A stretch of DNA of 64,000 bases from Pelagomonas calceolata. Taxonomy: Eukaryota. The notes beneath the pieces were generated by a model. The model made no database searches. It saw nothing but the letters and a program-made list of their open reading frames with translations, and had not been told where the DNA came from. The position numbers were made by a program, and so were the translations under genes. The stretch is taken from positions 248,001 through 312,000 of the forward strand of contig CAKKNE010000006.1 of NCBI GenBank assembly GCA_918797485.1. Reading direction: 5' to 3'. Below, piece by piece: positions 6,369 to 48,722 of the stretch. The number at the start of each line of letters is the position of its first letter. The first letter of the stretch is position 1.

Positions 6369-6392
6369 GCTAGTGTCTTACAGGACGCTAGC
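6369..6392 (+). promoter_or_regulatory. Paired-CTAG intergenic motif
   Basis: GCTAGTGTCTTACAGGACGCTAGC, ~190 bp upstream of the TRAPPC2 ATG. Confidence 0.55.
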
Positions 6393-6580
6393 TCGGCCGC
6401 TTTGGTGGAGTTGTCAAGGCCAGCCGCCAAGCGGGCCAGCTCTGCCCAATTTCACACGTGCGTGACGCCTGGCCAGCACTGGATCCCTCTCGTGGCGTTG
6501 CGCCAACGCCTGCCCGCGCGGCACCCTAACCTCGGCACCCAACAAGGCCAAAAAGCCAGCCGCAGCGCGCGACGCCAACC

Positions 6581-7003
6581 ATGGCCGCCAAGGACACAAC
6601 TTCAAAAATGTTCGTCGTCTGCGGTAGAGATGCGGACTTACTCTACGAGGCCGAGCTCAACGCCAATTTCGACGCGGAGTCCCCGACGGCGCATTTATCG
6701 CACTTCGTGCTGCACGCGGCGCTGGATAATGTCGATCATCTCATAGCGACGACGCCCGACGTGTATTTGAGGGTCGTGGACAATTTCAACGAGAAGCGCG
6801 TCTACGCGTTTTGTACCGGCGGACATGCGAAATTCCTACTGCTCCATGAAGGTAGAAACGAGGACGCCGTGCGCAATTTCTTCAATGATGTGTATGACAA
6901 GTACGTCCAGGCGCTGTTGAACCCGTTTTATGTGCCGGACTCGGAGCTCACATCGCCAGCCTTCGATCGAAGTGTGAGAGCTGCTGCCAAGAGGTATTTG
7001 TAA
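6581..7003 (+). CDS. TRAPPC2: TRAPP complex subunit 2 (sedlin/Trs20)
   Basis: HFVLHAALDNVD, YLRVVDNFNE, KFLLLH, NFFNDVYDKYVQALLNPFY; 140 aa. Confidence 0.92.
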   Translation: MAAKDTTSKMFVVCGRDADLLYEAELNANFDAESPTAHLSHFVLHAALDNVDHLIATTPDVYLRVVDNFNEKRVYAFCTGGHAKFLLLHEGRNEDAVRNFFNDVYDKYVQALLNPFYVPDSELTSPAFDRSVRAAAKRYL

Positions 7004-8450
7004 CTATGTGATCAGTAGGTCTCCCCCTAGTGGTGGTGTCCTTCTCCCCCGCGCAAGAGATGGTGGGGCGAGCAATGCTCGCACCTCGTGCTGCGCCCGG
7101 TCCTCATCCTCGATACCATGTGCTCTACCAACCAGCGAAAAGGCCACCGCCGAGGTCACCAGACAAATACAGACGCAGAGGAACAGCGGGTCCCTTACTT
7201 TTGCATCGCCGGGGTCGTGCGTCGACACGGCCCAGGGACCCAATGCGGCGACGGCCTGGTTGCAGACTAAGAGTAGCGCCACTTGTGTGCCCATGGATTT
7301 TGTAGGGACGTCTTCCACCAGTAACGACATGCCCGGTCCCAGCCAGCACTCCGACACGAGGATCAGGAGGAGTAAACACGTCAAAGATCCTCCAAAGGTA
7401 GAAGCGTACAGACACCCATAAGCCAGAGGGACCGCTAAGACGGCGCCGATCGCCGCGACGTCGCCGTGGGCCCCTTTGCGCCGCACGGCCCAGGCGTCGG
7501 CGATGTATCCCCCTCCTGAGGAGGAGGCGGCGCCGCACAGTAAGGTACCAAGGGCGTACGACAGCGAGAAGGCGACGGCGTCCTCCGGAAACGCTCTAGA
7601 ATAGTAGGTCGGCAGGTAGGTCCATAATGAGACGGTCGCGGCCATCCGCACGGACGTCGCGCCGTACAATCCTAACAGTCGCTTGACGCGCAGCACGTAG
7701 AGCACCGCTCGTCGCAGCGACACATATAAGCTGTCGGACGGGATGGTCCGCCTCGGCGGCCGGTCGACCACGAGCCACAGTAGCGCCGCGGCAAAAATAC
7801 CTACCACGCACGCCATCGTCGTCGTCTGGCGCCAGCCGACGCCCATGGCGAAGAGCAGCGAGAGTGTAGATAGAGCCGAGCCCGCATACGTCCCCATCGA
7901 ATAGCAGCCGTTCGCCGAGGCGCGCTCGTGCACCGCGTAGTGGTACGCCGTTACTGGATACGCGCACGGGGCGTTGAAGCCCTCCGCGACGCCCGTGATG
8001 AACCGCGCGAGCACAAGCATGGAAAACGAAGGATAGATGACGGGCAGGAAGCCTGCCAACGCCCAGGTCAAAGCGGCTCCGGCGTGCAACCGCTTGGCAT
8101 CGAGCCGATCCGCCAAATGGCCGGCAGCCAACCCAGACAGTGCGAAACACGTCGTGAAGGCGACGGACGCGAGCAGCCCGTACTGGCGGTCCGAGACACA
8201 CGCGGCATCTCTGATCGAGTAGTAGGCCGCGTCGGCGCCCGCGCGACACGTCTGGCACTCGCCGCACTCGTCGTTCTCGCACACATCACACACCGGCACG
8301 AAGGCCGCGTTCTCGCATTCTTTCAAACACTGAGGTGGGATGACGCTCGCGAGCGCGTAAATGAGGTTGCGCTGCCAGAAGTTCGAGGCGTTGGCCACGG
8401 TCAGCGCCGCGAGGGCGAGCCGCCGCCGCGCCGGCGGCGGCCGCTGCTGG
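7004..8450 (-). CDS. MFS transporter (Spinster-like); start codon unresolved
   Basis: Multi-TM pattern, GHLADRLDAKR, ARFITGVAEG, GGYIADAW. The frame stays open upstream of the GTG at 8398 (RRRLALAALTVANASNFWQR) to a TAG near 8540 with no ATG. Confidence 0.82.
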
Positions 8451-8890
8451 CGCCCGCTCTGGAACTCCGTCGTGTTTTGGTGTCCTTTCGGGTGCCGCTG
8501 CCCACGGCGCTCTTCCAGCTCCCAGCGCTGGATTTTCCCCTAGCACCGGCTGCCCCCGGCGTCGGAGTACCGGTGCGCGTGCGTGCGACGAGCTGTGCCG
8601 CCGCCGACACGCCGCAACGCCCCCAAAACGCACGATGTTTGAGGCTGGAAACCCGTATTTTCGCCTGAATTGCAGCTGAGGTTGAACGTCGCGAGAAGCG
8701 CTATTTTTTGCCTTCATGGGCAAGGGACGTGTCCGGAGTTGGCCCAGGACCGACGCGGGGTGAAGAAGTCGCGCTCGCGCTCGGACGCGGCGGCCGTGCG
8801 CAACACTGGAGCATGAATAAATCCCCGGCCGGCGCATCGACCATTCCCAATTACAAGAAACACATTATATATTACAAATTCGCCCGCCGC

Positions 8891-11800
8891 TCACGAGACA
8901 AGCTCCGCCTCAAGCGCCCTCGACGCCATCGCCTTCTCCCGCACGAGCTCCGGCGCCGTCGCCGTTTTGAGCGCGTCGACCGCGACGCCCAGCGCCCCGC
9001 GCGCGGCACTCCGCACCGAAGAAAGCGAAAAGGGCGCCGGCCCGCGCCTTTCTTCAAACGCCGTCGCGTTCTGCGAATCGGCCAGCAAAAGCCTTAAACG
9101 TTCGAGCCAGGCGCTCGCCGTCGCCGTCTCGAGGACTTCTGAAGAAGGCAGCGGCTTTAGTAATTTCTCCGTCAGCGTCGACAAGACGGCCGAGTTATCC
9201 CCCTCGAGCCACGCGAGCGTGTCGTACCAGCGCAAACAAGTCACGTGTAAAACGTGGTCCATGGACCGCGTCCTTCTCTGTAGAGCGCCCTCGAGCCACA
9301 GGTCATAATCCGAGGCGAGCCCCCACTTGTATTCATTATCATCGAACGCGGCGGCGCGCTTCAGTAATGATAACGGGGGCAGGGCCAGGCCCGGGTCCCG
9401 CCAGGCGTCGCCTAGCAACTCCAAGGCTCTTTGACGCGTCTCCTTGGCTACGGGCTTCGAGAGCTCGTCATAATTTGTTCTGTCGTAGTCGAGACCCCGC
9501 ATATATAAGACGAGCAGCTCGCCGCAGTCGCGCCACCAGGCATTTAACGCTCGCGACGCGGCCGCGCGCTCGTACTCCCGCCGCCTCACGAAGACGTCCT
9601 CGTATCGCGAGGCCATCGCATCATCCCCCAGCCGCTCCAGAAATCTCTTCGTGACTCTCCTTTGTTGCGAACACCATTCGGTAGCATCCTGGCTGAGGTC
9701 GTAGGGCCTAGCGCGTGGATCGTTCGACGCTAGTTGGTCGCCGTCGTCCGATCTGGCGAGCGTCGGGTTGCCGTCCGCTTCTTGAGCGATGGCCCGGAGC
9801 TCGTCCTCCGAAACGACAGAGTAGCCATACTTGATGCAGAACGCGTCGTAGATGCCCACGCCGTCCATGAAATATTTACCTTGGTCTTTCTGGTCCTCCG
9901 CGACCACGGGCGCGATGTAGTCCATCACTGAAGATGCGACCCTACCTTGCTTGCGCTTCGTCGCGTCGTGGATGTCCTCGAGCTTATGGAGTGCCGAGGC
10001 CCGGAAGTTGTGCCTCAACCCAAGCGTGTGGCCCACCTCGTGCGCGACGACGTCGACCAACCCGGCCTCGACAAACGTCTTGGAGTCGACGTCGGCGTCG
10101 CCGCGCGCGGTGAGCCCAACAGCTAAGCCCTCTAACACTTCATGTGCCGACCGGTGGCAGTGGCGGTGCGCGTCGTGGCCGTGGCCGTGGTCGTGGTCGT
10201 GATCATGGCCCTGCCCGCCGTGGGCATGTCCCACGGGCGCGTGGTCGCCGCGGTCGTGGCGCCCGGACGGGTCGTGGCCGATCGAGGCCTCGTCCAACCA
10301 GCTCCCCGTGAACGCGCGGATCCAGCCCTCGCCGAACACGATGTTCGCGTAGAGGATCTCGCCCGTCCGGGCATCCACGACGGACGGGCCGATCGCCAAT
10401 CCTAGGTCGGGGTAGGGCAGCCAAGTGATCGAGGAAAACCGCACGTCCCCGGGATCATACTCCGCCGGCCAATCAGCATCATCCGGTTCCACGACTTTGA
10501 TGGCTTCCTCGAAGCCAATCGCTTCAAAAGCTGGCTGCCAAGTCAAGACGCCGCGCTTGATGGCTTCCCTCAAAGGTTGTGGTACGGTCGGGTCGAGGTG
10601 GTACGTGATTGGTACCCTGGGTTTGCAGAGTAGTCTCCGACCGTGAGCCAATCGACGTTCGGTGCAGTCCTCATCTTTTTCTAGACGCCTCCTGTGTGGA
10701 AACCAGTGCGTCGGGTGCACCGACAATTCTTCACTAAGTCATTTCTTCGCGATGACGCGGCCGTCCTGGCTCGGTCGAGCGGCGAGGAACCGGCATCGCC
10801 ACGCCATCGAGCAGGCGTCGCGTCGATGGCGTGGAGGACGACGCGACGATTCAGCACGAACGCGCCGTAAAATCTTGATTTCCACACAGGCCGTCGCCGG
10901 TTTATCAAGTTCACTCTCCGGTCCGCATCACTATAGGAAGCATTCGGCGCGTCCGTGTGGAAATCTCTCGGGAGGGGTCCGAGCTGCTCGTACGTCGTCC
11001 CGAAGAAGCCCACCCTATCATCAGCGCGCCTCGGCGTCATCGGCTCGTCGGGCAACAACGCTAAAGAGTAGGCTATTTCTACAGCCGTCGGGTCGTTGGC
11101 GTACACATCTTCCACATCCCACAATGAACACGCGACGACGAACTGCACATTTCGGGGAAACGCCGAGACAGATCGCAATTCGAGCTCGCCGTGGCAGCGC
11201 TTCGGAATATCTACAATCGCGGCGCCTTCGTTCAGGATCCAGCTCCAGGCGTTGTATACGACTGCGCCGTCGCCGCAGTCGCCCGCCTTCGGCAGCGTCG
11301 CGACCCAGCCCACGGCACCCAGACCGTCCTCGGCGGCCGCCGCGTACGTGTCCGTCACCGGCCTTACACTTAGGGGTGGCCGCGTGACGCGCGCGTCGCC
11401 GCCGTGTGCTGATTCTCTCAATGTGAAATAGCTGTCCTCGACGCCGACGCCGTAGTGGGCAAAGCCCGCGTCGCGGCCGGTTGTCCTTCGTGTGGTAGCT
11501 ATCACCGTGAACGGCGCGGAGAGCGTTTCGTTGGGGATCGTCAGGAGCAGCGACTGGCTCGCGTAGTCGGCGTGCGCGTGCCACGTCGCGTTCGTCGCGT
11601 TTCTAGCCGCGCAGGCTTGCTTGGCCGGGTCCGGCGGTGGTGGCGGAGGGGTCAGTAAGGTAGCCAGCGTGAGCTGCAGCATTTCTAGAGTGGTCGCGAG
11701 CGACGGCTGCCGCGGCGTCGCGGCGACGGCGTAGGCGATGAGTGCGACGACGACCGCGGCGCCCGACGCGCCGCAGCACGCGCGGAGCCAGCGGCGTTTC

Positions 11801-12136: not shown

Positions 12137-12160
12137 GCTAGTGTCTTACAGTCCGCTAGC
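12137..12160 (+). promoter_or_regulatory. Paired-CTAG intergenic motif
   Basis: GCTAGTGTCTTACAGTCCGCTAGC, 230 bp upstream of the ATG at 11907 (-). Confidence 0.55.
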
Positions 12161-13126: not shown

Positions 13127-13897
13127 CCTTCTCTCTGCCTGTGCGATGAACGACGGTGGCGGGCCCGCCCGCAAGCAGTTTTCTCGCGGGCGTTGTGTGT
13201 ATAGCCAAGCAGCGCCGCGGCCAGGAGGTCCGCGGCCAGCGCTATGCGTATACGCAAGCAGCGCCGCGGCCAGGACCAGAAGTCAATCCCAGCGGTACGA
13301 GTCGCGTCGCGGCAGGATTCTTGTGTGTAGAGCAGCAGCGCGCAGCCCAGCTTCCGCTAGGCGTGGTCATCCGGTCGTCCGAAGCCTTTGTAGGTCGCCC
13401 TTTTGGCCCAAGGGCTAGGCTAGCGGGCAGCAGGCAAAACAGATGGCCAAACAATGGAGCTCGAGTGCTCAGCCGCGCCGGCGAGCCGCAGCTTCAGATT
13501 CGCAGGGCTGTCGCACCGCTCAGTTCGAATGCTATTCTCGAATGTGCAGCCTTGGGAGACTCGCAGACGCGGAGCACTGACCGCTTTTACTGTCCTTGAC
13601 TCGATCCAGCCCAAAAAATGGGTTCGGGTTGCTCGCCTGCGACCGCAACAATCACGCCAAAGTTTCACCCCGGAGGCCGTTCTTCGCGATGACGGCGACT
13701 GGCAAAACGCAGGAATCGCCTGCCGGGCTCTAGAGGACACTAGACTTGCTCAGGGCAGCCCTTGGCCGGTGCAGGCGCAAAAGGCGCCGCGGCAGCCGCA
13801 GCGGCGCGCATGTACGCACGTTTGATCAAGGTGCAGTGAACTACAACGAACAGCGACGAACGGTGACGCTGCGAGGACGCGTGGGACCACACCAACT

Positions 13898-18852: not shown

Positions 18853-18874
18853 GCTAGCGGTGAAAGACACTAGC
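18853..18874 (-). promoter_or_regulatory. Paired-CTAG intergenic motif
   Basis: GCTAGTGTCTTTCACCGCTAGC on the minus strand, ~205 bp before the ATG at 19079. Confidence 0.5.
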
Positions 18875-21033: not shown

Positions 21034-21055
21034 GCTAGCGGTGTAACACACTAGC
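21034..21055 (-). promoter_or_regulatory. Paired-CTAG intergenic motif
   Basis: GCTAGTGTGTTACACCGCTAGC on the minus strand, ~160 bp upstream of COQ5. Confidence 0.55.
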
Positions 21056-21206
21056 AACGTACTAGCCTGAGCCTGAGTGGCGGAGCGGTGTTGCGGCACG
21101 TCCACGTTTGGCGAGCGGTACGAAAGCTAGCTCAAAAGCGACTTTCTCTCTCTCTCACGCCATCGACGCGACGCAGAGCGGCACCGTTTCGTAAGACGAT
21201 TTCATG

Positions 21207-22821: not shown

Positions 22822-23132
22822 CGCGATTTTCGCTAGGCGTCCGTCCAGAGCAGGGATGTACACGAGAATCCAATTCCTGAGTCGCGTCGGCAGCGTTACG
22901 CGGAGGTAGAGGCCTGATCAAGCAGCCAGGTCACCGCTCTAGTAGGTTACGCTAGACAAGGTCGAAGTTAATGTGGGCGAGGGTAGCTCTCAAGGGCAGA
23001 GCAATTGACGGAGAGACTCACGAGGCGCGCAGAGAGCTCCAAACGCTGCATTATATACCAGCAGCCCCGCGCTTGACCTTTCCGCGATCACAGAGCGATA
23101 AGCACTGCGAGAGCAGCAACTGCAGCGCAACC

Positions 23133-28981: not shown

Positions 28982-29570
28982 CTTATTGGCTGTTGTTTTT
29001 TTGTGTTTAAGAGGGCGCGCGGCGCTCGCTGGCGCTTTGGGCTGAGGCGGCGACGGCCCTGTTACGGGCCCTGGCGCACCGAGCGATGCGAGGCGCTAGT
29101 GTTTTGAGACAAGCGACACTCCAGGCAGTATATTAGTAACGTAGCACGGTCAGCGCGACCACAGGGACTACACGCTGCAAAAAAAAAACCTGTTTTGCTT
29201 CAATTTGTTTCGGGGGGTCCGGGGAAAGTCGTTCTTATTTTTCCATTTCTCTGATACTGCGTCAATGGAACGTCAATGGATTGCTACATCAAAATAGCAG
29301 CTTCTTTTAATGGGACGGGTTTCACCTCAGCTGTTCCTCTTCTTCGGGCCGTATTGTCCTACGGCGCCCACCGTGCACCGCCTCGAGCCTCTTCGCGCGT
29401 CGTGTGTCATAGCGGGAGGCGAAACGCACGAACGGACACCGCGTTTTGGCGGCTATCTGATGAGCACACGGGCTAATTCTTCACTTTACCTAGTCTTGCG
29501 TTATAGCGACCCCGCGCCGTGTTGCCGGGGATCCCTAGCTCGACGTCGTCAAAATGGTTTGGCGTGCTTT

Positions 29571-29595
29571 GCTAGTGTGTTACAGGCCTCTTAGC
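29571..29595 (+). promoter_or_regulatory. Paired-CTAG intergenic motif (variant)
   Basis: GCTAGTGTGTTACAGGCCTCTTAGC, ~195 bp before the ATG at 29790. Confidence 0.5.
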
Positions 29596-29789
29596 TAATC
29601 GCGGCCTTGGATGCGAGGCGTTTCCTCCGCGCCCAGGCACATTTTGGACGCGCCAGAGCATTTCGGGGCCACGTTGCATTGGCAAGAAAGCATAGAAGCA
29701 GCCACGGCCACTGCCGCCCGCGGTTCCCGCTCCTTGGCCAGACCGAAGACAGAACACCAAAACGCCATCGCCGCGGCGCACCCGCACCC

Positions 29790-30692: not shown

Positions 30693-30720
30693 CTCTATCG
30701 CGTCGTATTGCGTCGAGTGT

Positions 30721-30744
30721 GCTAGTGTCTTACCGGTCGCTAGC
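30721..30744 (+). promoter_or_regulatory. Paired-CTAG intergenic motif
   Basis: GCTAGTGTCTTACCGGTCGCTAGC, ~140 bp before the ATG at 30886. Confidence 0.55.
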
Positions 30745-30885
30745 TTCGCGGCTTTGAACTTTTGAGACCGCCGCGCTGACCGCATTTGTGCCCAACGCCG
30801 GCGGAGACAACCGGCAGCGCTCTAAATCCAATCGCTGCACTGCGCTGCGGCGCTGAACGAGCATCCGTGCGAAGTGCACAACACA

Positions 30886-32166: not shown

Positions 32167-32187
32167 TAAAGACTAATTTGAACAATA

Positions 32188-33807: not shown

Positions 33808-33986
33808 CGTTAGCTGAGGCCAACTGCTGGGCTGCACTCAAACCACCTCACTGTTGTCTGAGCGAATCGATGCCCTTCTTTTTCTCCCGCTGGCACAGGG
33901 CAGTAAAATAGCGCAGTCCTATCAATCAATCACTAACGCTGCTCTATGCGCTGAGGTACGGCCGGTTTTAAGATGAAAGGCTGTGT

Positions 33987-34010
33987 GCTAGTGTCTCACA
34001 TGACGCTAGC
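33987..34010 (+). promoter_or_regulatory. Paired-CTAG intergenic motif
   Basis: GCTAGTGTCTCACATGACGCTAGC, centred between divergent genes. Confidence 0.55.
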
Positions 34011-34141
34011 AAGCGGCCGGGTCGCGAGCTTGTAAAAAACACTCTGTGAGGCGCACTTTTGCAGCTCAAATCACGTTTTGCACTCGTGCCAGCGCCAGCG
34101 CGTCGCTGACTGCTCCGCTCAGCCACACGCCGTCGACGTGC

Positions 34142-35718: not shown

Positions 35719-36000
35719 GTAATGCGGTTTGTGGTTATGATATTCGTGCACGGAACTTCTAGACGCTCATTGCCAGTCGTTGAGACGCGTGCGCGAGTCT
35801 GCTTTTCCCACCCCGATTTACAGTTATTTTGGCACAGCCTCTCTTTTTAGGGGTGATTTGCGAGGGCGCGACGGCGCGCGGCAAACAGTTACGTATCTCA
35901 CGTCGGTAACAATCACTCACACGGCGTCGACGCGAAGCGACAAGCCGAGATACGCCCCCGCGGTGGATAAAACCACAGCAGTAACTGATCGAAAAAAACG

Positions 36001-36447
36001 ATGCCGGCGACGCGGCGGACGCGAGCACAGACCGCCAAGGGTCCCAAAGTGAGCCTCGACACGATCCTGCTCGCCACCGCGGTCGGCGCCGGCGCCGCGG
36101 CGTATTTCTTCCTCGACGTCGCCCCAGAGGTCGTCGTCGCGTCATGTGTGGCGGCCGTGACGGTCGTGCTCATCTACGGCGGCAAGGTCCAGAAATACGT
36201 GCGGGGGCGCAAGCCCAAGGCCGCCAAGCCCAAGGCCGCGGCGTCGCCGAAGCCGACGCGCGTGCAGCCGAAGCGTTCGGCGACGCCGGAGCCCCTGAGC
36301 CGCAAGCCGAGCTCGCCCAAGAAGCCGGCCGCGAAGCCCGCGGCCAAGCCGGCGGCCTCGCCCAAGCCGAAGCGCGCCGCGGCCGCGTCGCCCAAGCCCG
36401 CGGGACCGCGGCGATCGGCACGGCAGGCCGGCAAGCCGGCGAAGTAA
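36001..36447 (+). CDS. Small 2-TM protein with a histone-H1-like Lys/Ala/Pro SPK tail
   Basis: ILLATAVGAGAAAYFFL and VVVASCVAAVTVVLIY, then KPKAAKPKAAASPK repeats ending PRRSARQAGK. Confidence 0.72.
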   Translation: MPATRRTRAQTAKGPKVSLDTILLATAVGAGAAAYFFLDVAPEVVVASCVAAVTVVLIYGGKVQKYVRGRKPKAAKPKAAASPKPTRVQPKRSATPEPLSRKPSSPKKPAAKPAAKPAASPKPKRAAAASPKPAGPRRSARQAGKPAK

Positions 36448-36736
36448 GGCCGCGCCGGCGGTCCGCGTCCGCCGCCCCGCGCCGCCCTGCCACGCGACGC
36501 GCTCCTGGATAGCGCGGCGCGGCCGGGCGGCCGGGCGCCGGCGCGGATCACCGACCAAGCCCTTGCGTTTGCCACGACCCCTCCCCTTTCCGATTCGCTT
36601 GGGACCGTAGGTTCAGTGAAAAAAACACTAGACAATCTAGCATCAGCTGCCGCAGGGACAGACACAGCGCTCGGCGCTCTCGCCCCCCGCCCCAGGGCCC
36701 AGGCTTCCATATTACAAGCTTACAGACGACGGAGCT

Positions 36737-38806: not shown

Positions 38807-38975
38807 CGCGCGCGTGTGGCAGCAAGGTGTAGTCGAGGCAGATGATATGCAGTGGCTTCCAAAGCCGTAGGGTTCGTAAGAATTGTTGGAGGAGCTGTGA
38901 GAGTAAGCGTACGACTCCAGAGAGCTGTTTTATGCAGCCTCGCGGGCGAAATAGCCCCGCGGCGCCAGATTTTGC

Positions 38976-38998
38976 GCTAGCGGTCGGTAAGTCACTAG
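38976..38998 (-). promoter_or_regulatory. Paired-CTAG intergenic motif
   Basis: CTAGTGACTTACCGACCGCTAGC on the minus strand, centred between divergent starts at 38806 and 39186. Confidence 0.5.
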
Positions 38999-39185
38999 GA
39001 AGCAGCGCGCGCACGGCTTTGACGCTGCGTAGAGCTCGTTGTGAGAGCTTTGGAGCTTAGCACCTGCCGTTCGCGATACGTTGGCACCTCGAAAAAGCCG
39101 CTGCTGCAATCGCGTCACGTCTGGTGACGCTACGCCGCGCTACCACTGAGCAGTCATACAAGCCGCGCCAAGAGACCTCGCAAAG

Positions 39186-40319
39186 ATGTCGCTGGTGAGG
39201 ACGTCCGGCCACCAGCTGGCGCACGGCGCTTACACAGAAAAACAGCAAGCCACAAGCAACGTGCTCAAACATTCGAACATCGACGCCGTAGAGATCGCGC
39301 CGCTCATGAACGACTGGCTCCAGCACGCGTTGGCGGGCGCGTACGGCGCTTCGGCACGCCACCGCTTCATGATCGGGGCGATGGCCGGCTCACGCGCCGC
39401 GGCTTTCGCGTCCGGAATGGCGATAGTCCACGCGCGCCGCGGCTTCCTGACGGACGCGTATGTGTGCGACGAAGCGCGGGCCGCGGTGGACGCCTACGAA
39501 CGAGTGCTGGCCGTCGCGCCGCCGCTGGAGGCCTTGATTGTGTGGTCCTTCGCGGACCTGCCGCCCGCCCTGGCCGCGCGGCGCACCTACTTCCTCTCGG
39601 GCTTGGAGTGGCTGGCGCGCTGCGGCTTCGCGCTCCTCAACCGCCTCATTCGGCAGCGGCGCCTCATTATGGACCGGGCGACGTTCATGCGGCTCATCGC
39701 CTTCCTCAATGCGGACATCTGCCAGTCGCGGCGCAACATCATCCCCGGGTGGTGCCCCGAAGACGACACGCGCGTGCGGCTCGTCGTCGTCAGCTGCGTG
39801 AACGTCGTCGACTTCGCGCGCGGCCACCCGAAGCACCAGCTCGAGCTCGCGCCGCTCCTCACCGCCTGCTTCGTCGAGACGTCGAAGAAGGAGATGGTCT
39901 CGACGGCGTCGGACCGCTTCTACAAGTACCCGATCCACCAGCACTTCCTCTACTGCCTCTTGACGCACATCGGCTGCTGCGTGCCGGACGCCGAGCTCCC
40001 CCAGGTGCGCCTCCAGTTCGGGGAGGCGTGCCGGTCGATTCGCCCGATGCATCATAACTGGGGCTTCGAGACCGCCGAGGCGGGCGGCTCCGCCGGCTCG
40101 TGGTACGGCATCCACAGCAGCGTGGTCGCGCCCCCGGACGACATCGCCCGCGCGCTCCGGACGCACGGTCCGAACCACCTCCTCGACCTCACCGACAAGG
40201 CCACCGTCAAGCTCGTCCTCGCCGCCCACCAGCGCGGGACGCCGTGCGGCGCGACGCAGATCGCGCGGCTCCTGCGGAGCCGCGACGACTACGAGACGCC
40301 CGCCGTCCCTCGGGTGTAG
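39186..40319 (+). CDS. Hypothetical protein
   Basis: 377-aa ORF with strong GC3 bias. Confidence 0.62.
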   Translation: MSLVRTSGHQLAHGAYTEKQQATSNVLKHSNIDAVEIAPLMNDWLQHALAGAYGASARHRFMIGAMAGSRAAAFASGMAIVHARRGFLTDAYVCDEARAAVDAYERVLAVAPPLEALIVWSFADLPPALAARRTYFLSGLEWLARCGFALLNRLIRQRRLIMDRATFMRLIAFLNADICQSRRNIIPGWCPEDDTRVRLVVVSCVNVVDFARGHPKHQLELAPLLTACFVETSKKEMVSTASDRFYKYPIHQHFLYCLLTHIGCCVPDAELPQVRLQFGEACRSIRPMHHNWGFETAEAGGSAGSWYGIHSSVVAPPDDIARALRTHGPNHLLDLTDKATVKLVLAAHQRGTPCGATQIARLLRSRDDYETPAVPRV

Positions 40320-40546
40320 ATTGTTAAGCAGTCACTTGTTAAGAAACGCGCGACCGAACCATGTTGCTAGTGTCTTACATGCCGCTAGCGCGTAATTAGT
40401 TCGCAAGGAAATCCCGGCTTTACTCGCAGCGCAAAGTCGTCATGAATCGCAGATTCTATAAGCATTGCTCTAAGTAACCGTACGAGCAGCCCAAAGGAAT
40501 TCTCGCACTTCTGCATGGTGCCCGTGGTGTTATTAGTAACTTATTA

Positions 40547-41919
40547 CTACCCAGTGTGCGGCGTGGATACCCACCGGCGAATCCGCGATTCGGCGACGCG
40601 TGCCTCGGAATCCTCGTCGTCGTATAGGATGTCGTACAAGCGGTCGCCGCGAATAGCTGTGATCTTGCCGGTGAACCACTGGTTGCCGCCGCGCGACCGC
40701 ACCTCGACGCGCTGGTTAACCGCGAATGCGGCATTGTAGGATGGGCGCTCTCTCGCCGCCGCTTCCCTCGCGCGGGCGGCCTCGCGGCGCGCCGCCTCGT
40801 CGCGCTCCCTCGCGCGGCGCGCCGCCTCGTCGCGCTCCCTCGCGCGGGCGGCCTCGCGGCGCGCCGCCTCGTCGCGCGCGGCGCGGAGCTCGGCGCGGGC
40901 CCGCTCCGCCTCGCGCCGCGACCGCTCGACGGCGGCGCGCCGCTCGCGCTCCTCGGCGGCTTCGCGGCGCGACCGCTCGACGGCCTCGCGCCGCGCCGCC
41001 GCGTCCTCGTCTTCTCGCGCCGCTTCCCGCCGCTGCCGCGTCGCGTCGCGGTCCTGCGCCTCCTCCGTAGGGCGAGGAGTAGCGCCGACACTTTGTCCAT
41101 TGACGAGCAGGGCGCCGCCCGGGATGCTCCCGAAGCACACCTCGCAGAGGGCGTGGCCGCAGGGCAGGGCCACGACGGGTTCCGCCGTCTCTAAGCAGAC
41201 GGGACAGTGGGCCGAGGCGAAGACTCTGTTCCCACAGGCGCGCCGTGGGGGCTGCGTGCGGCAGATGGGGCAGGCGAGGACCCGATCGCGAGTCTGAAAC
41301 CGCACCTCATGTGAACCCACAATTCGCCCAGACCTGCCCACAAAACTCCGGTCGCCCACGGGGTTGATGTTGAAGACGTAGTCTTCTCCCGGCGGCTTTG
41401 GGGTCTGATGTTCAATGTGTTCGCTGTGTGTGTGACGGCCGTGGGCAGCAACCGCTCATCATTGCCGCGATAGTCCGCGATAGTGCACGGTATGCAATTC
41501 GCAATTGGAGGGACCAGGGCTCCCACGTTGATATACGAGTTGCCTTTTGCAGGGTCTGAGGACTCGGCGTTCGTGCAAAATAGAATGGAGACTAAAGTTC
41601 CATCTCCTGCTTCATTCTCGGACGGGACATCCCTCAGATCTGCTCCATTTACGGTGATTCTCTTTATCCACTGATGGTAACGGGCCCTGGGAGGTCCACC
41701 TCCTAACCGGAGGACCAGGTGGAGCGTCGATTCCATGTGGATGTTGTAGTCACTCAGCGTGCGGCCGTACTCGAGCTGTCTGCCGGCGTAGATGAGGCGA
41801 AGCTGGTCCGGAGGAACGCCCCTGTACCGGATCTTCTGCTTGACGCTGTCGATCGCGTCGCTCGGCTCGACGTCGAGCGTGAACGTCTCGCCCGTCATGG
41901 TCTTGACGAAGATCTGCAT
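40547..41919 (-). pseudogene. Ubl-RING-Tudor gene copy A, frameshifted
   Basis: Nearly identical to 42199-43581 but with a net 4-nt deletion near 41390-41405 (cccggcggctttggggtctg vs cccggccggagctttgggaaactg), which splits the ORF. Confidence 0.85.
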
Positions 41920-42198
41920 ATCGGTGCAGCGCTGCGTCGCAGGGCGTATTTTGGCACCAGTTTTACCACCATCAAGCCAGCATTGGTGATGAGGCCAGCC
42001 TGTGCTGGTAGCAGCAGCAAACGGCTGCCTCGCGAGTAGGTGAATGCAAACGGGCTGCCCCCAAAGCGGCGGCGGTGAGCAGCAGCACGTCGCGATCCAG
42101 CAGCTCTCCGGATTTGCTAGTGTCTTACATGCCGCTAGCGCGTGTTGCGCAAGGAGCAGCCCAAAGGAATTGTCGCACTTCTGCAGGTGTTTAGTAAC

Positions 42199-43581
42199 TT
42201 ATTTATGCCCAGTGTGCGGCGTGGATACCCACCGGCGAATCCGCGATTCGGCGACGCGTGCCTCGGAATCCTCGTCGTCGTATAGGATGTCGTACAAGCG
42301 GTCGCCGCGAATAGCTGTGATCTTGCCGGTGAACCACTGGTTGCCGCTGCGCCACCGCACCTCGACGCGCTGGTTAACCGCGAATGCGGCATTGTAGGAT
42401 GGGCGCTCTCTCGCTGCCGCTTCCCTCGCGCGGGCGGCCTCGCGGCGCGCCGCCTCGTCGCGCTCCCTCGCGCGGCGCGCCGCCTCGTCGCGCTCCCTCG
42501 CGCGGGCGGCCTCGCGGCGCGCCGCCTCGTCGCGCGCGGCGCGGAGCTCGGCGCGGGCCCGCTCCGCCTCGCGCTGCGACCGCTCGACGGCGGCGCGCCG
42601 CTCGCGCTCCTCGGCCGCCTCCCGCCGCGACCGCTCGACGGCCTCGCGCCGCGCCGCCGCGTCCTCGTCTTCTCGCGCCGCTTCCCGCCGCTGCCGCGTC
42701 GCGTCGCGGTCCTGCGCCTCCTCCGTAGGGCGAGGAGCAGCGCCGACACTTTGTCCATTGACGAGCAGGGCGCCGCCCGGGATGCTCCCGAAGCATCCCT
42801 CGCAGAGGGCGTGGCCGCAGGGCAGGGCCACGACGGGTTCCGCCGTCTCTAAGCAGACGGGACAGTGGGCCGAGGCGAAGACTCTGTTCCCACAGGCGCG
42901 CCGTGGGGGCTGCGTGCGGCAGATGGGGCAGGCGAGGACCCGATCGCGAGTCTGAAACCGCACCTCATGTGAACCCACAATTCGCCCAGACCTGCCCACA
43001 AAACTCCGGTCGCCCACGGGGTTGATGTTGAAGACGTAGTCTTCTCCCGGCCGGAGCTTTGGGAAACTGATGTTCAATGTGTTCGCTGTGTGTGTGACGG
43101 CCGTGGGCAGCAACCGCTCATCATTGCCGCGATAGTCCGCGATAGTGCACGGTATGCAATTCGCAATTGGAGGGACCAGGGCTCCCACGTTGATATACGA
43201 GTTGCCTTTTGCAGGGTCTGAGGACTCGGCGTTCGTGCAAAATAGAATGGAGACTAAAGTTCCATCTCCTGCTTCATTCTCGGACGGGACATCCCTCAGA
43301 TCTGCTCCATTTACGGTGATTCTCTTTATCCACTGATGGTAACGGGCCCTGGGAGGTCCACCTCCTAACCGGAGGACCAGGTAGAGCGTCGATTCCATGT
43401 GGATGTTGTAGTCACTCAGCGTGCGGCCGTCCTCGAGCTGTCTGCCGGCGTAGATGAGGCGAAGCTGGTCCGGAGGAACGCCCCTGTACCGGATCTTCTG
43501 CTTGACGCTGTCGATCGCGTCGCTCGGCTCGACGTCGAGCGTGAACGTCTCGCCAATCAGGGTCTTGACGAAGATCTGCAT
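42199..43581 (-). CDS. Ubiquitin-like / Ig-like / RING-type Zn finger / charged helical repeat / Tudor(Agenet) protein, copy B
   Basis: MQIFVKTL...LVLRLGG; CPICR...CPVC...[20 protein letters not shown] repeats; [31 protein letters not shown]. Confidence 0.88.
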
Positions 43582-43955
43582 ATCGGGAAGCCAAGGAAAG
43601 CGGAACTAGTCCCGTGCCGCGCTGCGTCGCAGGTCCGCTTTGATGATGAGGCCAGCCTGTACTGGTGCAGCGGCAGCAGCGAACGGCTGCCTCGCGAATA
43701 GGTGAATGCAGGCGGGGCTGCCCCCAAAGCGGCGGTGAGCAGCAGCACGTCGCGATCCAGCAGCTCTCCGGATTTGCTAGTGTCTTACATGCCGCTAGCG
43801 CGTAATTAGTTCGCAAGGAATCCCGGCTTTACTCGCAGCGCAAAGTCGTCATGAATCGCAGATTCTATAAGCATTGCTCTAAGTAACCGTACGAGCAGCC
43901 CAAAGGAATTCTCGCACTTCTGCATGGTGCCCGTGGTGTTATTAGTAACTTATTA

Positions 43956-45413
43956 CTACCCAGTGTGCGGCGTGGATACCCACCGGCGAATCCGCGATTC
44001 GGCGACGCGTGCCTCGGAATCCTCGTCGTCGTATAGGATGTCGTACAAGCGGTCGCCGCGAATAGCTGTGATCTTGCCGGTGAACCACTGGTTGCCGCCG
44101 CGCGACCGCACCTCGACGCGCTGGTTAACCGCGAATGCGGCATTGTAGGATGGGCGCTCTCTCGCTGCCGCTTCCCTCGCGCGGGCGGCCTCGCGGCGCG
44201 CCGCCTCGTCGCGCTCCCTCGCGCGGCGCGCCGCCTCGTCGCGCTCCCTCGCGCGGCGCGCCGCCTCGTCGCGCTCCCTCGCGCGGGCGGCCTCGCGGCG
44301 CGCCGCCTCGTCGCGCTCCCTCGCGCGGGCAGCCTCGCGGCGCGCCGCCTCGTCGCGCGCGGCGCGGAGCTCGGCGCGGGCCCGCTCCGCCTCGCGCCGC
44401 GACCGCTCGACGGCCTCGCGCCGCGCCGCCGCGTCCTCGTCTTCTCGCGCCGCTTCCCGCCGCTGCCGCGTCGCGTCGCGGTCCTGCGCCTCCTCCGTAG
44501 GGCGAGGAGTAGCGCCGACACTTTGTCCATTGACGAGCAGGGCGCCGCCCGGGATGCTCCCGAAGCAGGCCTCGCAGAGGGCGTGGCCGCAGGGCAGGGC
44601 CACGACGGGTTCCGCCGTCTCGAGGCAGACCGGACATTTCGCCGATGCGAAGACTCTGTTCCCACAGGCGCGGCGTGGAGGCTGCGTGCGGCAGATCGGA
44701 CAAGCGAGGACCCGATCGCGAGTCTGAAACCGCACCGCATGTCGATCCCGGAAGCATTCACCAGACCTGCCCACACAACTCCCTCTGCCCAAGGTAGCGA
44801 TCCTGAAGATGTAGTACTCTCCCGGCCGAAGCTTCGGGAATCTGATATTCAATGTGTTCGCTGTGTGTGTGAATGCCGTGGGCAGCAACGCCAGGACACG
44901 AGAGCCGTTAGCCAGGACACATTCCCTTCGTCTGTCATCGCCCCCACGACATGTGATAGCGAACGCCTCTACATTCGACGATTCATTCCTAATTGGAGGG
45001 ATCAGGGCGGCCACGTTTATATACGAGTTGCCTTTTGCAGGGTCTGAGGACTCGGCGTTCGTGCAAAATAGAATGGAAACTAAAGTTCCATCTCCTGCTT
45101 CATTCTCGAACGGGACATCTGACGTCCTCAGATCTGCTCCATTTACGGCGATGCTCCGTATCCACTGATGGTAATACGGGCCAGGAGGTGCTCCTCCTAG
45201 CCGGAGCACCAGGTGGAGCGTCGATTCCATGTGGATGTCGTAGTCACTCAGAGTGCGGCCGTCCTCGAGCTGCCTGCCGTAGATGAGGCGCTGCTCGTCA
45301 GGAGGAATGCCCTCCTTGTCCTGGATCTTCAGCCTCACGCTGTCGATCGTCTCGGACGGCTCGACGTCGAGCGTGATCGTCTTGCCCGTCGGGGTCTTGA
45401 CGAAAATCTGCAT
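43956..45413 (-). CDS. Ubl-RING-Tudor protein, copy C (divergent N-terminal half)
   Basis: Same architecture; Ubl closer to true ubiquitin ([14 protein letters not shown]...[10 protein letters not shown]); more EAARR repeats. Confidence 0.88.
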
Positions 45414-45601
45414 ATCGGGATGCCAAGGAAAGCGGAGCTAGTCCCGTGCAGCGCCAGGTCCGATTTGATGATGAGGCCAGCCTGTGCTGGTGTAGCAGCA
45501 GCAGCGAACGGCTGCCTCGCGAATAGGTGAATGCAGGCGGGGGCTGCCCCCAAAGGCGGTGAGCAGCAGCACTGTCGCAATCCCGATCGGCGGATTAGCT
45601 T

Positions 45602-45625
45602 GCTAGTGTGTTACAGGCCGCTAGC
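45602..45625 (+). promoter_or_regulatory. Paired-CTAG intergenic motif
   Basis: GCTAGTGTGTTACAGGCCGCTAGC between divergent starts at 45413 and 45779; related copies at 40366, 42116 and 43776. Confidence 0.55.
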
Positions 45626-45778
45626 TAATCGAGCCGACGACGCACATCGCAGCCCGGTCGCCAGTGACGGACTCGTCGAAGATTGCTGCACGTGGTAACA
45701 GCACTGCACGACCGCCCCAAGGCACCGCATCACTTTCGGCGCGCACCATGGGCCACAGCCTGAGTTGAGAGGGGAACA

Positions 45779-47639
45779 ATGCTGCGGCTGCGGACGCTGC
45801 TGCTCATCGCGGCGGCCGCCACGGCGACGACGACGACAACAACAACGACGGCCGGCCCCCACGACGGACGGACGGACGGCCCGACCCCCAGCAAGGCCCT
45901 CACGGCCCCCGCGACGTCGGCCGCCGTCTCCGCGGGCCCGCCCCGGACGGACGTCGCGCCGCCCGGACGAACGCGGGTGCGCATGGTCGTGTCCGGCCGC
46001 GACCGGCACACGCAGTTCTGCATTGGGGAGTTGGTGTTTCTGGACTCCTCAGGTAGAGAAGTAGCAGCTTCAAAAGCCACGGCGAGCGCGCCGCGCGCCC
46101 AGAAGGGCTTCGAGCCCAAACTACTCAGCGACGGCCGCCTGCACCACGACTTTTGCAGCGCCGAGCCGACGGGCTGGGTGTCGTTGGATCTTGAGGTGCC
46201 CCTACGCGAGTTAGCCGCGTATAGAATAGGATCGGACTGTGGGGAAGACACGCCGACGGACTGGACCCTGGAAGCCTGCGACAGCTGCGTCCACTCGGAT
46301 GAGGAAACGTGGGAAACGTTGGACGTGCGCACAGCAGAACCGTGGCGAAGTGGGTGTGACGGCGAGTGGCGCGACTATTCGATACAGAGGTGGAGAGTAT
46401 TGAGAATATCATCAGGAGTGCAGGACTGGTGCTTGGATGCTTTGAGATTGAATGGGGAAGAAAACAAACCGCTACGAATTAATAGCGCGAGGCCGGTCGC
46501 CGCGCCGGGCGCCACCGAAGCGTCAGGCGCGCGCGACTTCGCCCAGCGCGCCTCCACGATATCAAGGCTGGTGGGCATCGGCGGCCCGCCCTCGGACAAC
46601 GGGCAGCCGTGGTGCGGGACCGTGACGATCTGTGTGGAAATCAGATTTTGGGCGCCCGCCATCGACGCGATGCTGTACCTATAAATGCGTCTGCTCGATG
46701 GCGTAGAGTTCACGCCATCGACGCGACGTTGTCCCCTTGGCCGCGTCGGCTCGATGGCGTGGAGGTGCACGAAGGTCTCCGCAATATTTCTCAGGATAAC
46801 CTAACTCACTGGTTGATTCGACACAGGTCACGATGGGCGCCTTCGAGCCAAGTATGGCGACGTTCTGCGCGGACCTCGTGCATGAGAAGAGGAGCTGTGG
46901 TAGCTCAAGAGTCCTTGGTAAACGGGACACGGCCTCGGCCTGCGCGCGCTCTGTGCACCTTGATGATGAATGTAGCGGTCAGCGCTTCGAGTTCGATTCT
47001 GATAGTTCACACTGCGCGTGCTGTGCGTCCTCGGCGACGAAGCCCGGCGTCGGTTCTGTGTATGAGTACAACTACTGCGCTTCCCTCGTTGTTGATCTGC
47101 AACCTCAAGGTAGGGTACCTGTGGTAGCCGTACGCATAAGACGACCACAGAACGAGGCGCCAGCACCGATGAAATTGCGCGTGGACGGGTGCCTCTGGGA
47201 CCGGTCTCCACACGATGGGAAGCGGCTCCCCTTCGGCGGCTGCCGCCTCTGGAAGCGCCTCGCGACGGATACGAGAATCCAGTTTAACGGAGACGGCTGG
47301 GCCTTACTGTCGCTGCCCGGCGGCGTCGCCATAACGAAGTCCGCGCCGCCCTCTCATTTTTTCGACGAACTGGCGACGTCGCCCGGAGTGGGCACCGCGC
47401 GCGGCCCCGGCCAGGCGGCGCCGCGCGCGGTCGCCGTGGACCTGGGCGACCACGTCTGGGCGCCGGAACCCGACGGCGTGAAACTGCGGCGCATCAAGCT
47501 GACGCAATCTCATTTGCACGACATGTCGCGGATGAGTTCCGGTAGGGTCGTCTCGGCGACGTTCGCGCGCAATGTCAGTGGAGACACCTTGCTCGGGCGC
47601 AGCCGGGGCGACTCGAGCGTGATCAATATACGGATGTAA
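45779..47639 (+). CDS. Secreted Cys-rich protein with a discoidin/galactose-binding-like domain (exons 45779-46621, 46827-47639; 551 aa)
   Basis: Signal peptide and Thr run; ATAS...LLSDG...WVSLDL...YRI...PTDWTLE...WETLDVR; spliced WCGT|VTMGAF. Confidence 0.75.
46622..46826 (+). mobile_element. Introner intron (GT-AG, 205 nt)
   Basis: TSD GTGACGAT / GTCACGAT; TIR CTGTGTGGAAATC / GATTCGACACAG; two internal CGCCATCGA...TCGATGGCG hairpins. Confidence 0.92.
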
Positions 47640-47869
47640 TGTTTTATGTACACAAAAACTATATACAAAATCAGTAGAGGAGCGTCCCGCTCGAGCTGAG
47701 GTCCTGTAATGAAGAAGACCGGCAGCGGAGCAGGTAGCGCCAGGGGCTCTTGTCCTCGGGCCACGGCGGCAGCGAGAAGGCCTGTGTGTAGATGCCTTGC
47801 GTCGACGCCGTAGCGCGGACGAGGGGACGCGGGGGCGCGCCAATTGCGAATTCGCCGCCGCGAGCGTCG

Positions 47870-48045
47870 CGATGCGCGAAGCGGCAGACGACGGCGAAGC
47901 TGAGACTCGGCGCCAGGCCAAACAGCAACAACCAGACGCACGACGCGGACAAACAACCGAGCATGACGGGCCGCCGGCCGATCCTGTCGGATATCGCGCC
48001 CCAGAACGGGAAGCACAACTGCCCGAGCTGGTATGACGCCGCGGT
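47870..48045 (-). pseudogene. Fragment of an MFS transporter N-terminal half (about TM2-TM4)
   Basis: AASYQLGQLCFPFWGAISDRIGRRPVMLG...LLFGLAPSLSFAVVCRFA (MFS motif A); no start or remainder visible. Confidence 0.6.
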
Positions 48046-48560
48046 CGCCGCACCACCACCACCTACCACGCCTCATGTGCATCGCGTTTTTTCTGGGCCT
48101 CCTCGCCTCGCAGGTGGGCCTCATCGTCCACGCGTGCTTGGCTAACGTGACCTATCCGCGCGCTCGCGCGTCGGCGATGGCAATTCATAGCATCTTCGAC
48201 GACCTCGGCAAGGGCGGCGGTCCCTGGCTCGTGGCCAAATTCATCAAGCACTACGGGCGCCGACGGACATTCGTCTGGACGACTATCATTGCCTGGGGCG
48301 GTGCGGCGTTCTTTCAATACCTGTGCTCGTTTACACTAGAAGCTGACGAGCGCAAGATCCGCGAGCGCGGCGGCGGTGGGGCGGACGTGCCCGTCGCGAG
48401 GCATTCGTGGCTCGCCAAGCAGTCGTCCGCCGACCTCGAGAGCGAGTTCCGCGACGCTGCGGACGAGACAACGTCGCTGCTGCACCGGAGGGATCGCGAC
48501 GCCGCCGCACCATCTCGCTTCGACACGGGGCAGTTCAGCTTTCGTGATGCCGCGCAATAA
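48046..48560 (+). pseudogene. C-terminal fragment of a Spinster-like MFS transporter
   Basis: ACLANVTYPRARASAMAIHSIFDDLGKGGGPWLV...TLEADE; the N-terminal TMs are not visible upstream. Confidence 0.58.
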
Positions 48561-48695
48561 GTTCGATAGACTACTCTCTGAGTTCACGCGCGTTCCGCGT
48601 CCCCCTAGCCCAGCTCGGGCGGCGCTCGGGTCCGTAGCTCGTCGTAGCCGTCTGGATCCATGATTTACGCGTCTGCGGCGTCCGATACGCGTGGA

Positions 48696-48722
48696 GCTAG
48701 GTAGTGTATCAGACACACTAGC
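48696..48722 (-). promoter_or_regulatory. Paired-CTAG intergenic motif (variant)
   Basis: GCTAGTGTGTCTGATACACTACCTAGC on the minus strand, ~195 bp before the ATG at 48915. Confidence 0.4.

What the first reader, a model, noticed from the sequence alone, without database searches (positions are those of the whole stretch)
6369..48722. Dispersed paired-CTAG motif GCTAGTGT(C/G)TTACA-N-GCTAGC marks gene 5' regions
Seen: at least 13 copies (6369, 12137, 18853, 21034, 29571, 30721, 33987, 38976, 40366, 42116, 43776, 45602, 48696), with weaker CTAG pairs near 3320, 5130, 13730, 22940, 29095 and 36625. All are intergenic and occur in either orientation. Most lie 140-230 bp upstream of an ATG, often midway between divergent genes of unrelated function. 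I saw none within CDS. The ends form an inverted repeat (GCTAG...CTAGC) around a conserved asymmetric core. Inference: a general bidirectional promoter or nucleosome-depleted-region element bound by an abundant factor, or a relic of a tiny mobile element. I know of no description of it.
Basis: partly seen in the sequence, partly recalled or inferred. Interest (0 to 1): 0.8.

Follow-up and report, generated by a model that had tools for sequence, protein, structure and literature searches.

The report
One-per-promoter 24-bp motif in Pelagomonas
A 24-letter DNA motif sits once in front of many unrelated genes of an abundant ocean micro-alga, in either direction and not inside coding sequence, and is likely the landing site of an unidentified protein that would keep gene starts open; no description of it turned up in the papers searched.

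Summary
The motif is real. All 13 lie in 8.6 kb of intergenic DNA and none in 54.7 kb of genes; 12 have an ATG 131-229 bp away. A capped metagenome scan gave 121 further loci; flanking proteins cluster with Pelagomonas calceolata. There, 0 of 122 sites lay in modelled CDS, orientation to gene starts was unbiased (median about 197 bp), flanking genes were unrelated, and second copies were almost absent (1 seen, 22-85 expected). No target-site duplication, neighbouring transposase or compensatory pairing was found. Best reading (0.62): a binding site for an abundant general regulatory factor marking promoter nucleosome-depleted regions; binding is untested. Against: one copy is in a convergent spacer, one is covered by stranded RNA, one homologous promoter has a decayed copy, and enrichment over random intergenic placement is weak. 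New: the junctions of a ubiquitin-RING tandem array fall inside the motif, so copies can bound gene duplications.

The parts
6369..6392 (+). Motif copy, perfect, tandem spacer, 188 bp before Sedlin ATG (6581)
   Evidence: homolog L102 keeps the motif while about 150 bp around it barely align
12137..12160 (+). Motif copy, perfect, tandem spacer, 229 bp from the ATG (11907) of a minus-strand DUF5117/Met-zincin gene
18853..18874 (-). Motif copy, 2-nt spacer, divergent spacer, 204 bp before ORF 19079
21034..21055 (-). Motif copy, 2-nt spacer, tandem spacer, 160 bp before UbiE/COQ5 ATG (20873)
29571..29595 (+). Motif copy with degenerate right arm, divergent spacer; plus-strand RNA 5' ends pile up at 29617 in 4 of 4 runs
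30721..30744 (+). Motif copy, tandem spacer, 141 bp before ORF 30886
33987..34010 (+). Motif copy, divergent spacer (179 and 131 bp to the ATGs); divergence supported by stranded depth
38976..38999 (-). Motif copy (3 mismatches), divergent spacer; RNA 5' ends at 39034/39045 (plus RNA, one run each) and 38929 (minus RNA, one run)
40366..40389 (+). Motif copy, perfect, convergent spacer; left boundary of the ubiquitin-RING tandem array
42116..42139 (+). Motif copy at a repeat-unit junction of the array, 196 bp before ATG 41919
43776..43799 (+). Motif copy at a repeat-unit junction of the array, 194 bp before ATG 43581
45602..45625 (+). Motif copy, divergent spacer, right boundary of the array; covered by minus-strand RNA at 45618 (depth 43-56 in 4 of 4 runs)
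   Evidence: homolog L103
48696..48722 (-). Motif copy, 7-nt spacer, 4 mismatches, 192 bp before the 4,805-aa ORF
22938..22956 (+). Degenerate short-spacer copy in the DUF4336 / Pescadillo divergent spacer
   Evidence: 5 mismatches
13730..13744 (-). Degenerate left half in the Lhc / LRR divergent spacer
   Evidence: 6 mismatches
29095..29108 (+). Left-half look-alike inside the Prp19 5' UTR (minus-RNA 5' ends at 29154-29158)
40364..45625 (.). Tandem array of three ubiquitin(-RING) gene units, each bounded by motif copies

Best explanation
The motif is a 24-27 bp two-part DNA element found once in many promoter-side spacers of Pelagomonas, and it is likely read as double-stranded DNA by an abundant, still unidentified general regulatory factor that would hold a nucleosome-depleted region open, with transcription predicted to start a few tens of bases beyond either edge. 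Shown: sequence, position outside CDS, lack of orientation bias, distance to ATGs, one-per-spacer spacing, variable linker. Inferred: protein binding, nucleosome depletion, start-site placement. The two inverted GCTAG-containing arms around an asymmetric TTACA core and a 2-7 nt linker suggest two DNA-binding modules (a dimer or two-domain protein); the factor's family is unknown. The element is common, not obligatory: some promoters carry decayed copies or none.
For: 13 of 13 window copies intergenic; 0 of 122 metagenome anchor sites and 0 of 13 non-anchor copies inside modelled CDS. Gene starts face the motif on its left 45 times and on its right 37 times; among 34 Pfam-confirmed flanking segments (of 100 scanned) 28 are gene starts, 14 in the motif's orientation and 14 opposite. 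Distance to ATG: median 198 bp left (n=35), 195.5 right (n=28), 44 of 63 within 80-300 bp, p=0.50 for a side difference. One per spacer: 1 second copy in 56,246 bp of non-coding flank of 121 anchors, against 85 expected at the window's intergenic density or about 22 at the density of non-anchor promoter-type gaps (3 in 7,764 bp). Strong copies in 12 of 19 start-containing window spacers vs 1 of 8 convergent (Fisher p 0.033). Flanking genes functionally unrelated. Symmetric trough within about 100 bp: G+C 0.57-0.59 vs 0.62-0.69 further out, AA/TT 0.10-0.14 vs about 0.07-0.09. RNA 5' ends 22 nt (29617, 4 of 4 runs), 35-46 nt and 47 nt (single runs) beyond motif edges. Uneven conservation: linker positions vary 17-45% among sites that match 20 other positions exactly. 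Three diverged homologous pairs keep the motif (92% identity over the motif in two, vs 62% over the 60 columns on its left).
Against: No direct binding, chromatin or cap-site data. At 45602 stranded minus RNA covers the motif at depth 43-56, higher than in the adjacent CDS (18-40), so that copy appears to be inside a transcript. The 5' pile-ups at 29617, 39034 and 39045 all end on the G of an AG and could be splice-acceptor edges; Prp19's 5' ends (29154-58) are about 410 bp from the nearest strong copy. 40366 is in a convergent spacer. Convergent spacers are short: corrected for length, 1 of 29 convergent sites is not a significant deficit (p 0.13), and 82 of 108 start-facing sides is close to the roughly 70% expected for random intergenic placement (arithmetic). 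In this compact genome 'promoter' and 'untranscribed DNA' nearly coincide, so position alone does not prove promoter function. The only homolog not selected for having the motif (L023 vs L072) has a decayed copy, 16 of 25 columns, vs 31 of 60 and 46 of 60 in the flanks; the three conserved pairs were fetched by exact match and are biased. 0 of 6 non-anchor divergent gaps hold a strong copy (2 hold looser variants). No nucleosome-scale CG periodicity was seen.
Confidence: 0.62

Rival explanations
1. The motif marks another DNA transaction confined to untranscribed DNA, such as replication-origin licensing, a transcription roadblock/insulator between close-packed genes, or a recombination-initiation site, and lies near gene starts only because that is where untranscribed DNA is.
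For: Length-corrected promoter enrichment is not significant. In tandem spacers copies lie 28-156 bp from the upstream stop codon. One copy is convergent. Flanks next to the motif are indel-rich between homologs. One-per-spacer spacing fits these roles equally.
Against: Distance to ATG is tight in window tandem spacers (141-229 bp); in the two long divergent spacers the copy sits about 200 bp from one ATG, not centrally; 0 strong copies in 27 non-anchor convergent gaps (5,102 bp). About one copy per 5-6 kb is denser than eukaryotic origins usually are (recalled).
Confidence: 0.16
2. The motif is a recombination substrate or site that bounds gene units and drives promoter-to-promoter duplication or cassette insertion; any transcription role is secondary.
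For: In the ubiquitin-RING array the left flank of 43776 matches that of 45602 (local score 128), its right flank matches that of 40366 almost perfectly, and 40366 and 45602 share little beyond the motif (left score 16, background 16.8), so the junction lies within the motif. Insertion of a motif-bounded unit at a tandem-spacer copy would also explain the convergent copy 40366. Short modules abut the motif in otherwise unrelated loci. 39 of 121 sites are one identical 24-mer and 23 a second, which could reflect conversion.
Against: One array only. All 4 homologous pairs with both flanks (L102, L103, L094/L108, L023/L072) keep synteny on both sides. Any 26-bp direct repeat can serve as microhomology without a dedicated enzyme. 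Arms of 5-9 bp are shorter than tyrosine-recombinase arms (recalled); no recombinase or transposase among 34 Pfam hits in 100 flanking segments.
Confidence: 0.08
3. Neutral relic of a tiny transposon (MITE-like) tolerated only in untranscribed DNA.
For: Terminal inverted GCTAG/CTAGC; thousands of copies by estimate; many identical; the genome has active introner-type elements; one decayed homolog.
Against: No target-site duplication at k = 1-9 in 116 sites vs shuffled pairs; strongly uneven conservation by position; under-dispersion (1 second copy vs 22-85) is opposite to random insertion; similarity ends within 4 bp of the arms; kept at homologous positions in diverged lineages (biased sample).
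Confidence: 0.08
4. An RNA or single-stranded-DNA hairpin (5' UTR element or cruciform).
For: Some variants form a 10-bp stem (6369 plus strand z -3.6); one copy is transcribed.
Against: The two commonest variants fold no better than shuffles (z -0.64 to +0.19, 4 of 4 strands tested); when position 9 is G its partner is never C (0 of 22) and position 17 breaks the stem in 82 of 121; no orientation bias to genes; no Rfam hit.
Confidence: 0.04

Closest known systems
Yeast general regulatory factor sites (Reb1, Abf1, Rap1)
   Same: Located in promoter nucleosome-depleted regions of unrelated genes, at uni- and bidirectional promoters, acting regardless of site orientation (PMC8163841, passages read).
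   Different: No sequence relationship claimed; this motif is 24-27 bp with inverted arms and a variable linker and a third of exact-match sites are one identical word; the binding factor and chromatin effect are unknown here.
Toxoplasma TgAP2XI-5 site (palindromic GCTAGC)
   Same: The right arm is exactly GCTAGC and the left arm a near copy; that palindrome is reported as an ApiAP2 binding motif in promoters (PMC6631176, passage read).
   Different: There a single 6-bp site; here two arms plus a conserved asymmetric core. No AP2 protein was linked to this motif; a 6-bp match between distant lineages may be chance.
Oomycete core promoter elements INR, FPR, DPEP
   Same: Lineage-specific stramenopile promoter motifs; the combined INR+FPR is 16-19 nt (PMC3599244, abstract read).
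   Different: Those overlap or follow the start site and are directional; this motif has no orientation bias and appears to lie upstream of or between start sites.
Long housekeeping / bidirectional promoter motifs of animals (Drosophila Motif 1-M1BP, vertebrate ZNF143 site) - recalled, not retrieved
   Same: Long motif at many housekeeping and divergent promoters, bound by one abundant factor (recalled).
   Different: Those are not inverted-arm elements and are zinc-finger sites (recalled); no homology tested.
Pelagophyte introner elements
   Same: Short, high-copy dispersed sequence in the same genome (bioRxiv 10.1101/2021.10.25.465678, section 17 read; copies seen).
   Different: Introners are about 200 bp, intronic, with terminal inverted repeats; this motif is 24 bp, intergenic, without target-site duplication.

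Membership tests
General-regulatory-factor promoter element (Reb1/Abf1 type) | Outside coding sequence, upstream of many unrelated genes | tested here: met
General-regulatory-factor promoter element (Reb1/Abf1 type) | No orientation preference relative to the gene | tested here: met
   45 vs 37 starts; 14 vs 14 Pfam-confirmed; distance p 0.50
General-regulatory-factor promoter element (Reb1/Abf1 type) | Enriched at promoters beyond what intergenic length predicts | tested here: inconclusive
   Fisher p 0.033 by spacer count, p 0.13 after length correction
General-regulatory-factor promoter element (Reb1/Abf1 type) | Start sites lie just beyond the site | tested here: inconclusive
   three 5'-end clusters 22-47 nt away, one copy inside RNA; polyA RNA-seq only, 27000-46999 only
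General-regulatory-factor promoter element (Reb1/Abf1 type) | Bound by an abundant sequence-specific protein; site is nucleosome-depleted | not testable with these tools
   needs pull-down, MNase/ATAC; composition trough is indirect
MITE / non-autonomous DNA transposon | Target-site duplication | tested here: not met
   116 sites, k 1-9, four boundary choices, no excess over shuffles; a fixed target such as CTAG itself cannot be excluded by this test
MITE / non-autonomous DNA transposon | Terminal inverted repeats of about 10 bp or more | tested here: not met
   5 bp perfect, up to 9 bp imperfect in a minority of variants
MITE / non-autonomous DNA transposon | Even decay across positions and random or clustered placement | tested here: not met
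MITE / non-autonomous DNA transposon | Empty orthologous sites | tested here: inconclusive
   4 homologous pairs: 3 keep it, 1 has a decayed copy, none cleanly empty; sample biased
Structured RNA / ssDNA hairpin (REP-like) | Compensatory pairing and stable folding | tested here: not met
   no Rfam match
Site-specific recombination site (attC/lox-like) | Rearrangement junctions map inside the site | tested here: inconclusive
   met for one array; synteny intact in 4 of 4 homologous pairs
Site-specific recombination site (attC/lox-like) | Cognate recombinase encoded in the genome | not testable with these tools
   no whole genome held; none among flanking segments
ApiAP2 (TgAP2XI-5) binding site | Bound by an AP2-domain protein | not tested
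   only the 6-bp sequence match

The most novel reading that the evidence does not exclude
Pelagomonas punctuates its genome with one long, near-invariant word per promoter that both organises gene starts and serves as the standing recombination point between genes, so that duplications and insertions happen promoter-to-promoter and yield intact, expressed gene cassettes, as seen in the ubiquitin-RING array: a eukaryotic analogue of cassette-bounded gene shuffling.
Probability: 0.12. Interest if true: 0.85.

Novelty: new variant of a known kind. Interest (0 to 1): 0.55.

Why it matters
Promoter grammar is essentially undescribed in pelagophytes in the papers searched, and Pelagomonas calceolata is among the abundant open-ocean picoeukaryotes. 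A single element at an estimated several thousand promoters gives a direct bait to find the factor, a testable model of how genes packed about 300 bp apart are separated and started, a building block for expression vectors, and a marker for annotating gene starts in metagenome contigs. Its length and uniformity are unusual for a transcription-factor site and raise the question of how such sites arise and are kept. If motif-bounded duplication proves general, regulatory punctuation would also channel gene-family expansion.

Tried and rejected
Rfam and tRNA scans: nothing. Viral contigs: 0 exact matches; a looser pattern gave 18 low-GC loci, mostly one homologous site, taken as chance and unrelated. 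Prokaryotic genomes: 5 matches, all in marine MAGs, one perfect core per genome with control counts similar for the looser matches; probably mis-binned or chimeric algal DNA, not used as evidence. CG periodicity as a sign of phased nucleosomes: none. 'Every promoter has some CTAG pair': 6 of 6 motif-less start-containing window spacers over 250 bp have one (0.57 expected), but 4 of 6 non-anchor divergent gaps in the metagenome loci have none and 3 of 27 convergent gaps do; not adopted. Remote homology between the right flanks of 40366 and 45602: score 27 vs background 17.8 +/- 3.3, not repeated with L103 (18); inconclusive. No whole genome was available and the metagenome records could not be searched whole, so genome-wide counts are estimates. 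RNA evidence exists only for 27000-46999; the four copies left of 27000 and 48696 have none. Earlier scan findings: five look-ups, nothing bearing on this motif. Papers: 10 searches, no description found; two recalled paper ids were not held.
Full report
Observation. All 13 listed copies are at the stated places, and a scan with up to 4 mismatches and a variable linker returns exactly these 13. The consensus as written, with one N, matches nothing at 3 mismatches; the linker is 4 nt in 9 copies, 2 nt in two and longer in two. CTAG pairs 18 nt apart number 11 (9 motif copies) against 0-2 in 30 Markov simulations. On gene models from ORFs, Pfam and a coding model, with strand confirmed by stranded RNA for 27000-46999, all 13 lie in 8,621 bp of spacers and none in 54,702 bp of genes. 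Five are between divergent genes, seven in tandem spacers, one (40366) in a convergent spacer; 12 of 13 have an ATG 131-229 bp away (arithmetic).

Organism. The closest named Prp19 relatives are pelagophytes; the window's proteins lie on a 3.9-Mb NCBI contig; 63% G+C and 200-bp introner-like repeats match the published P. calceolata genome (bioRxiv 10.1101/2021.10.25.465678; passages and section 17 read). Of 10 proteins from motif-bearing metagenome loci, 7 were in the collection and 3 of those clusters list a named P. calceolata member among the rows shown. The assignment to P. calceolata is inference. How far the motif extends in pelagophytes could not be tested.

The motif elsewhere. Free positions show T at -2 and -1 (72%, 74%), C/G at position 9 (82/18%), a linker preferring (G/T)G(C/A)C, T after the right arm (56%) and little beyond. 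There are 31 distinct 24-mers; one makes up 39 of 121 and a second 23 (duplicate L092 dropped). Viral contigs gave 0 exact matches and prokaryotic genomes 5, all marine MAGs with one perfect core each. Four same-site recaptures among about 8,000 pairs and 4-6 exact copies per 64 kb both suggest some 2,000-3,000 exact sites in a 32-Mb genome, perhaps twice that with variants; this is an estimate.

Position. With a coding model trained on the window (two of 23 training segments were in a wrong frame), 0 of 122 sites lay inside CDS; of 29 with both sides classed, 17 were divergent, 11 tandem, 1 convergent; starts faced the motif 45 times on the left and 37 on the right, ends 13 and 13. Of 100 adjacent segments from L001-L079, 34 had Pfam hits, to unrelated families and no transposase; 28 of these are starts, 14 in each orientation. 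Distances to ATG were the same on both sides (medians 198 and 195.5 bp, n 35 and 28). The surroundings show a symmetric AT-richer trough within about 100 bp and no nucleosome-scale CG periodicity. The strongest sign of function is spacing: one second copy in 56,246 bp of non-coding flank, against 22-85 expected under independent placement. The weak point is that convergent spacers are short: by count the excess in start-containing spacers is 12 of 19 vs 1 of 8 (p 0.033), but after length correction the deficit of convergent sites is not significant (p 0.13). The element is not universal: 0 of 6 non-anchor divergent gaps had a strong copy, 2 had looser variants.

RNA. Four stranded polyA runs of one sample were laid on 27000-46999. 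5' ends pile up at 29617 (4 of 4 runs; 22 nt right of the 29571 copy), at 39034 and 39045 (one run each) and 38929 (one run) on both sides of the 38976 copy. This fits starts just outside the motif, but three of these ends fall on AG and may be exon edges, 11 rows of that table were not shown, and RNA-seq ends are not cap sites. Against the reading, minus-strand RNA covers 45618, inside the 45602 copy, at depth 43-56 in all four runs, and Prp19 starts about 410 bp from a strong copy with a half-site in its 5' UTR. Copies outside this stretch have no RNA evidence.

Conservation. L102 (homolog of 6369), L103 (of 45602) and L094/L108 keep the motif while adjacent sequence is more diverged, but these were fetched by exact match. 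The one unselected homolog, L023 against L072, has a decayed copy between the same two genes (16 of 25 columns). Sites therefore turn over, and degenerate forms such as 22938 probably belong to the same class.

Alternatives tested. Transposon relic: no target-site duplication in 116 sites, uneven conservation, under-dispersion. Hairpin: the commonest variants fold no better than shuffles, and the inner stem shows no compensation (0 of 22). Recombination site: the ubiquitin-RING array has its unit boundaries inside the motif, with left flanks from 45602 and right flanks from 40366. Unequal exchange between two direct copies, or insertion of a motif-bounded unit at a tandem-spacer copy, would produce this (inference). 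It is one case, and 4 of 4 homologous pairs keep synteny across the motif, so I read it as microhomology use by an abundant repeat, with a 0.12 chance that it is a general route of gene duplication.

Mechanism. Most likely (0.62) an abundant factor with two DNA-binding modules reads the two GCTAG-containing arms and the asymmetric core, excludes nucleosomes over about 100-200 bp, and lets transcription start on whichever side a gene lies. Shown: sequence, placement, symmetry, spacing. Inferred: binding, chromatin opening, start-site setting. It works like yeast Reb1 sites, which lie in depleted regions and guide nucleosome positioning on either side regardless of orientation (PMC8163841, passages); membership of that class cannot be tested without chromatin and binding data. 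The right arm equals the Toxoplasma AP2XI-5 palindrome (PMC6631176, passage), a lead only. It differs from the directional oomycete INR/FPR/DPEP elements (PMC3599244, abstract).

Novelty. Ten full-text searches (listings only, except as noted) found no description; the genome preprint has no occurrence of 'motif', 'promoter' or 'palindrom' and a 2026 preprint on this species has none relevant. The library lacks most subscription papers; I did not read the journal version of the genome paper, and the preprint's supplements (repeat families) were not seen and might list it. Five look-ups of earlier scan findings gave nothing relevant. Verdict: real, apparently undescribed, probably a lineage-specific general promoter element of unusual length and uniformity; new variant of a known kind; interest 0.55.

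Noticed in passing
window 40364-45625: Three tandem ubiquitin(-RING) gene units whose repeat junctions fall inside the motif; the left unit appears to be broken into ORFs 41191-41919 and 40456-41100.
   Followed up: partly
window 10692-10892, 34988-35184, 63160-63344; L016, L017, L049, L077: About 200-bp introner-like repeat with palindromic ends, 76-95% identical between copies; attracts many reads from other copies.
   Followed up: partly
window 21057-21076 (minus strand); L035, L107, L118: A short CTCAGG-repeat word recurs next to the motif at variable distance in unrelated loci; L107 and L118 share 55 bp up to the motif.
   Followed up: partly
L006, L010, L013, L048, L093; similar word at window 48891: A second short module follows the motif at variable distance in unrelated loci; L010 has telomere-like repeats about 200 bp further on.
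   Followed up: partly
window 6345-6496 vs L102: About 150 bp around the motif barely align between homologs while the UTR/CDS on both sides are 85-92% identical: promoter flanks look like indel hot spots.
   Followed up: partly
window 48915-63332 (+): Single 4,805-aa ORF with degenerate internal repeats and no Pfam match at E 0.01.
   Followed up: no
window 27583-27602: Prp19 RNA appears to end 7-19 nt after its stop codon: very short 3' UTR.
   Followed up: no
L122-L126: Five marine prokaryote MAGs hold one perfect copy each, probably algal DNA binned or joined into bacterial/archaeal assemblies.
   Followed up: partly
window 41007-43674: Plus-strand (antisense) RNA over the ubiquitin-RING array, depth up to about 60 in one run; may be mis-mapped reads.
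   Followed up: no
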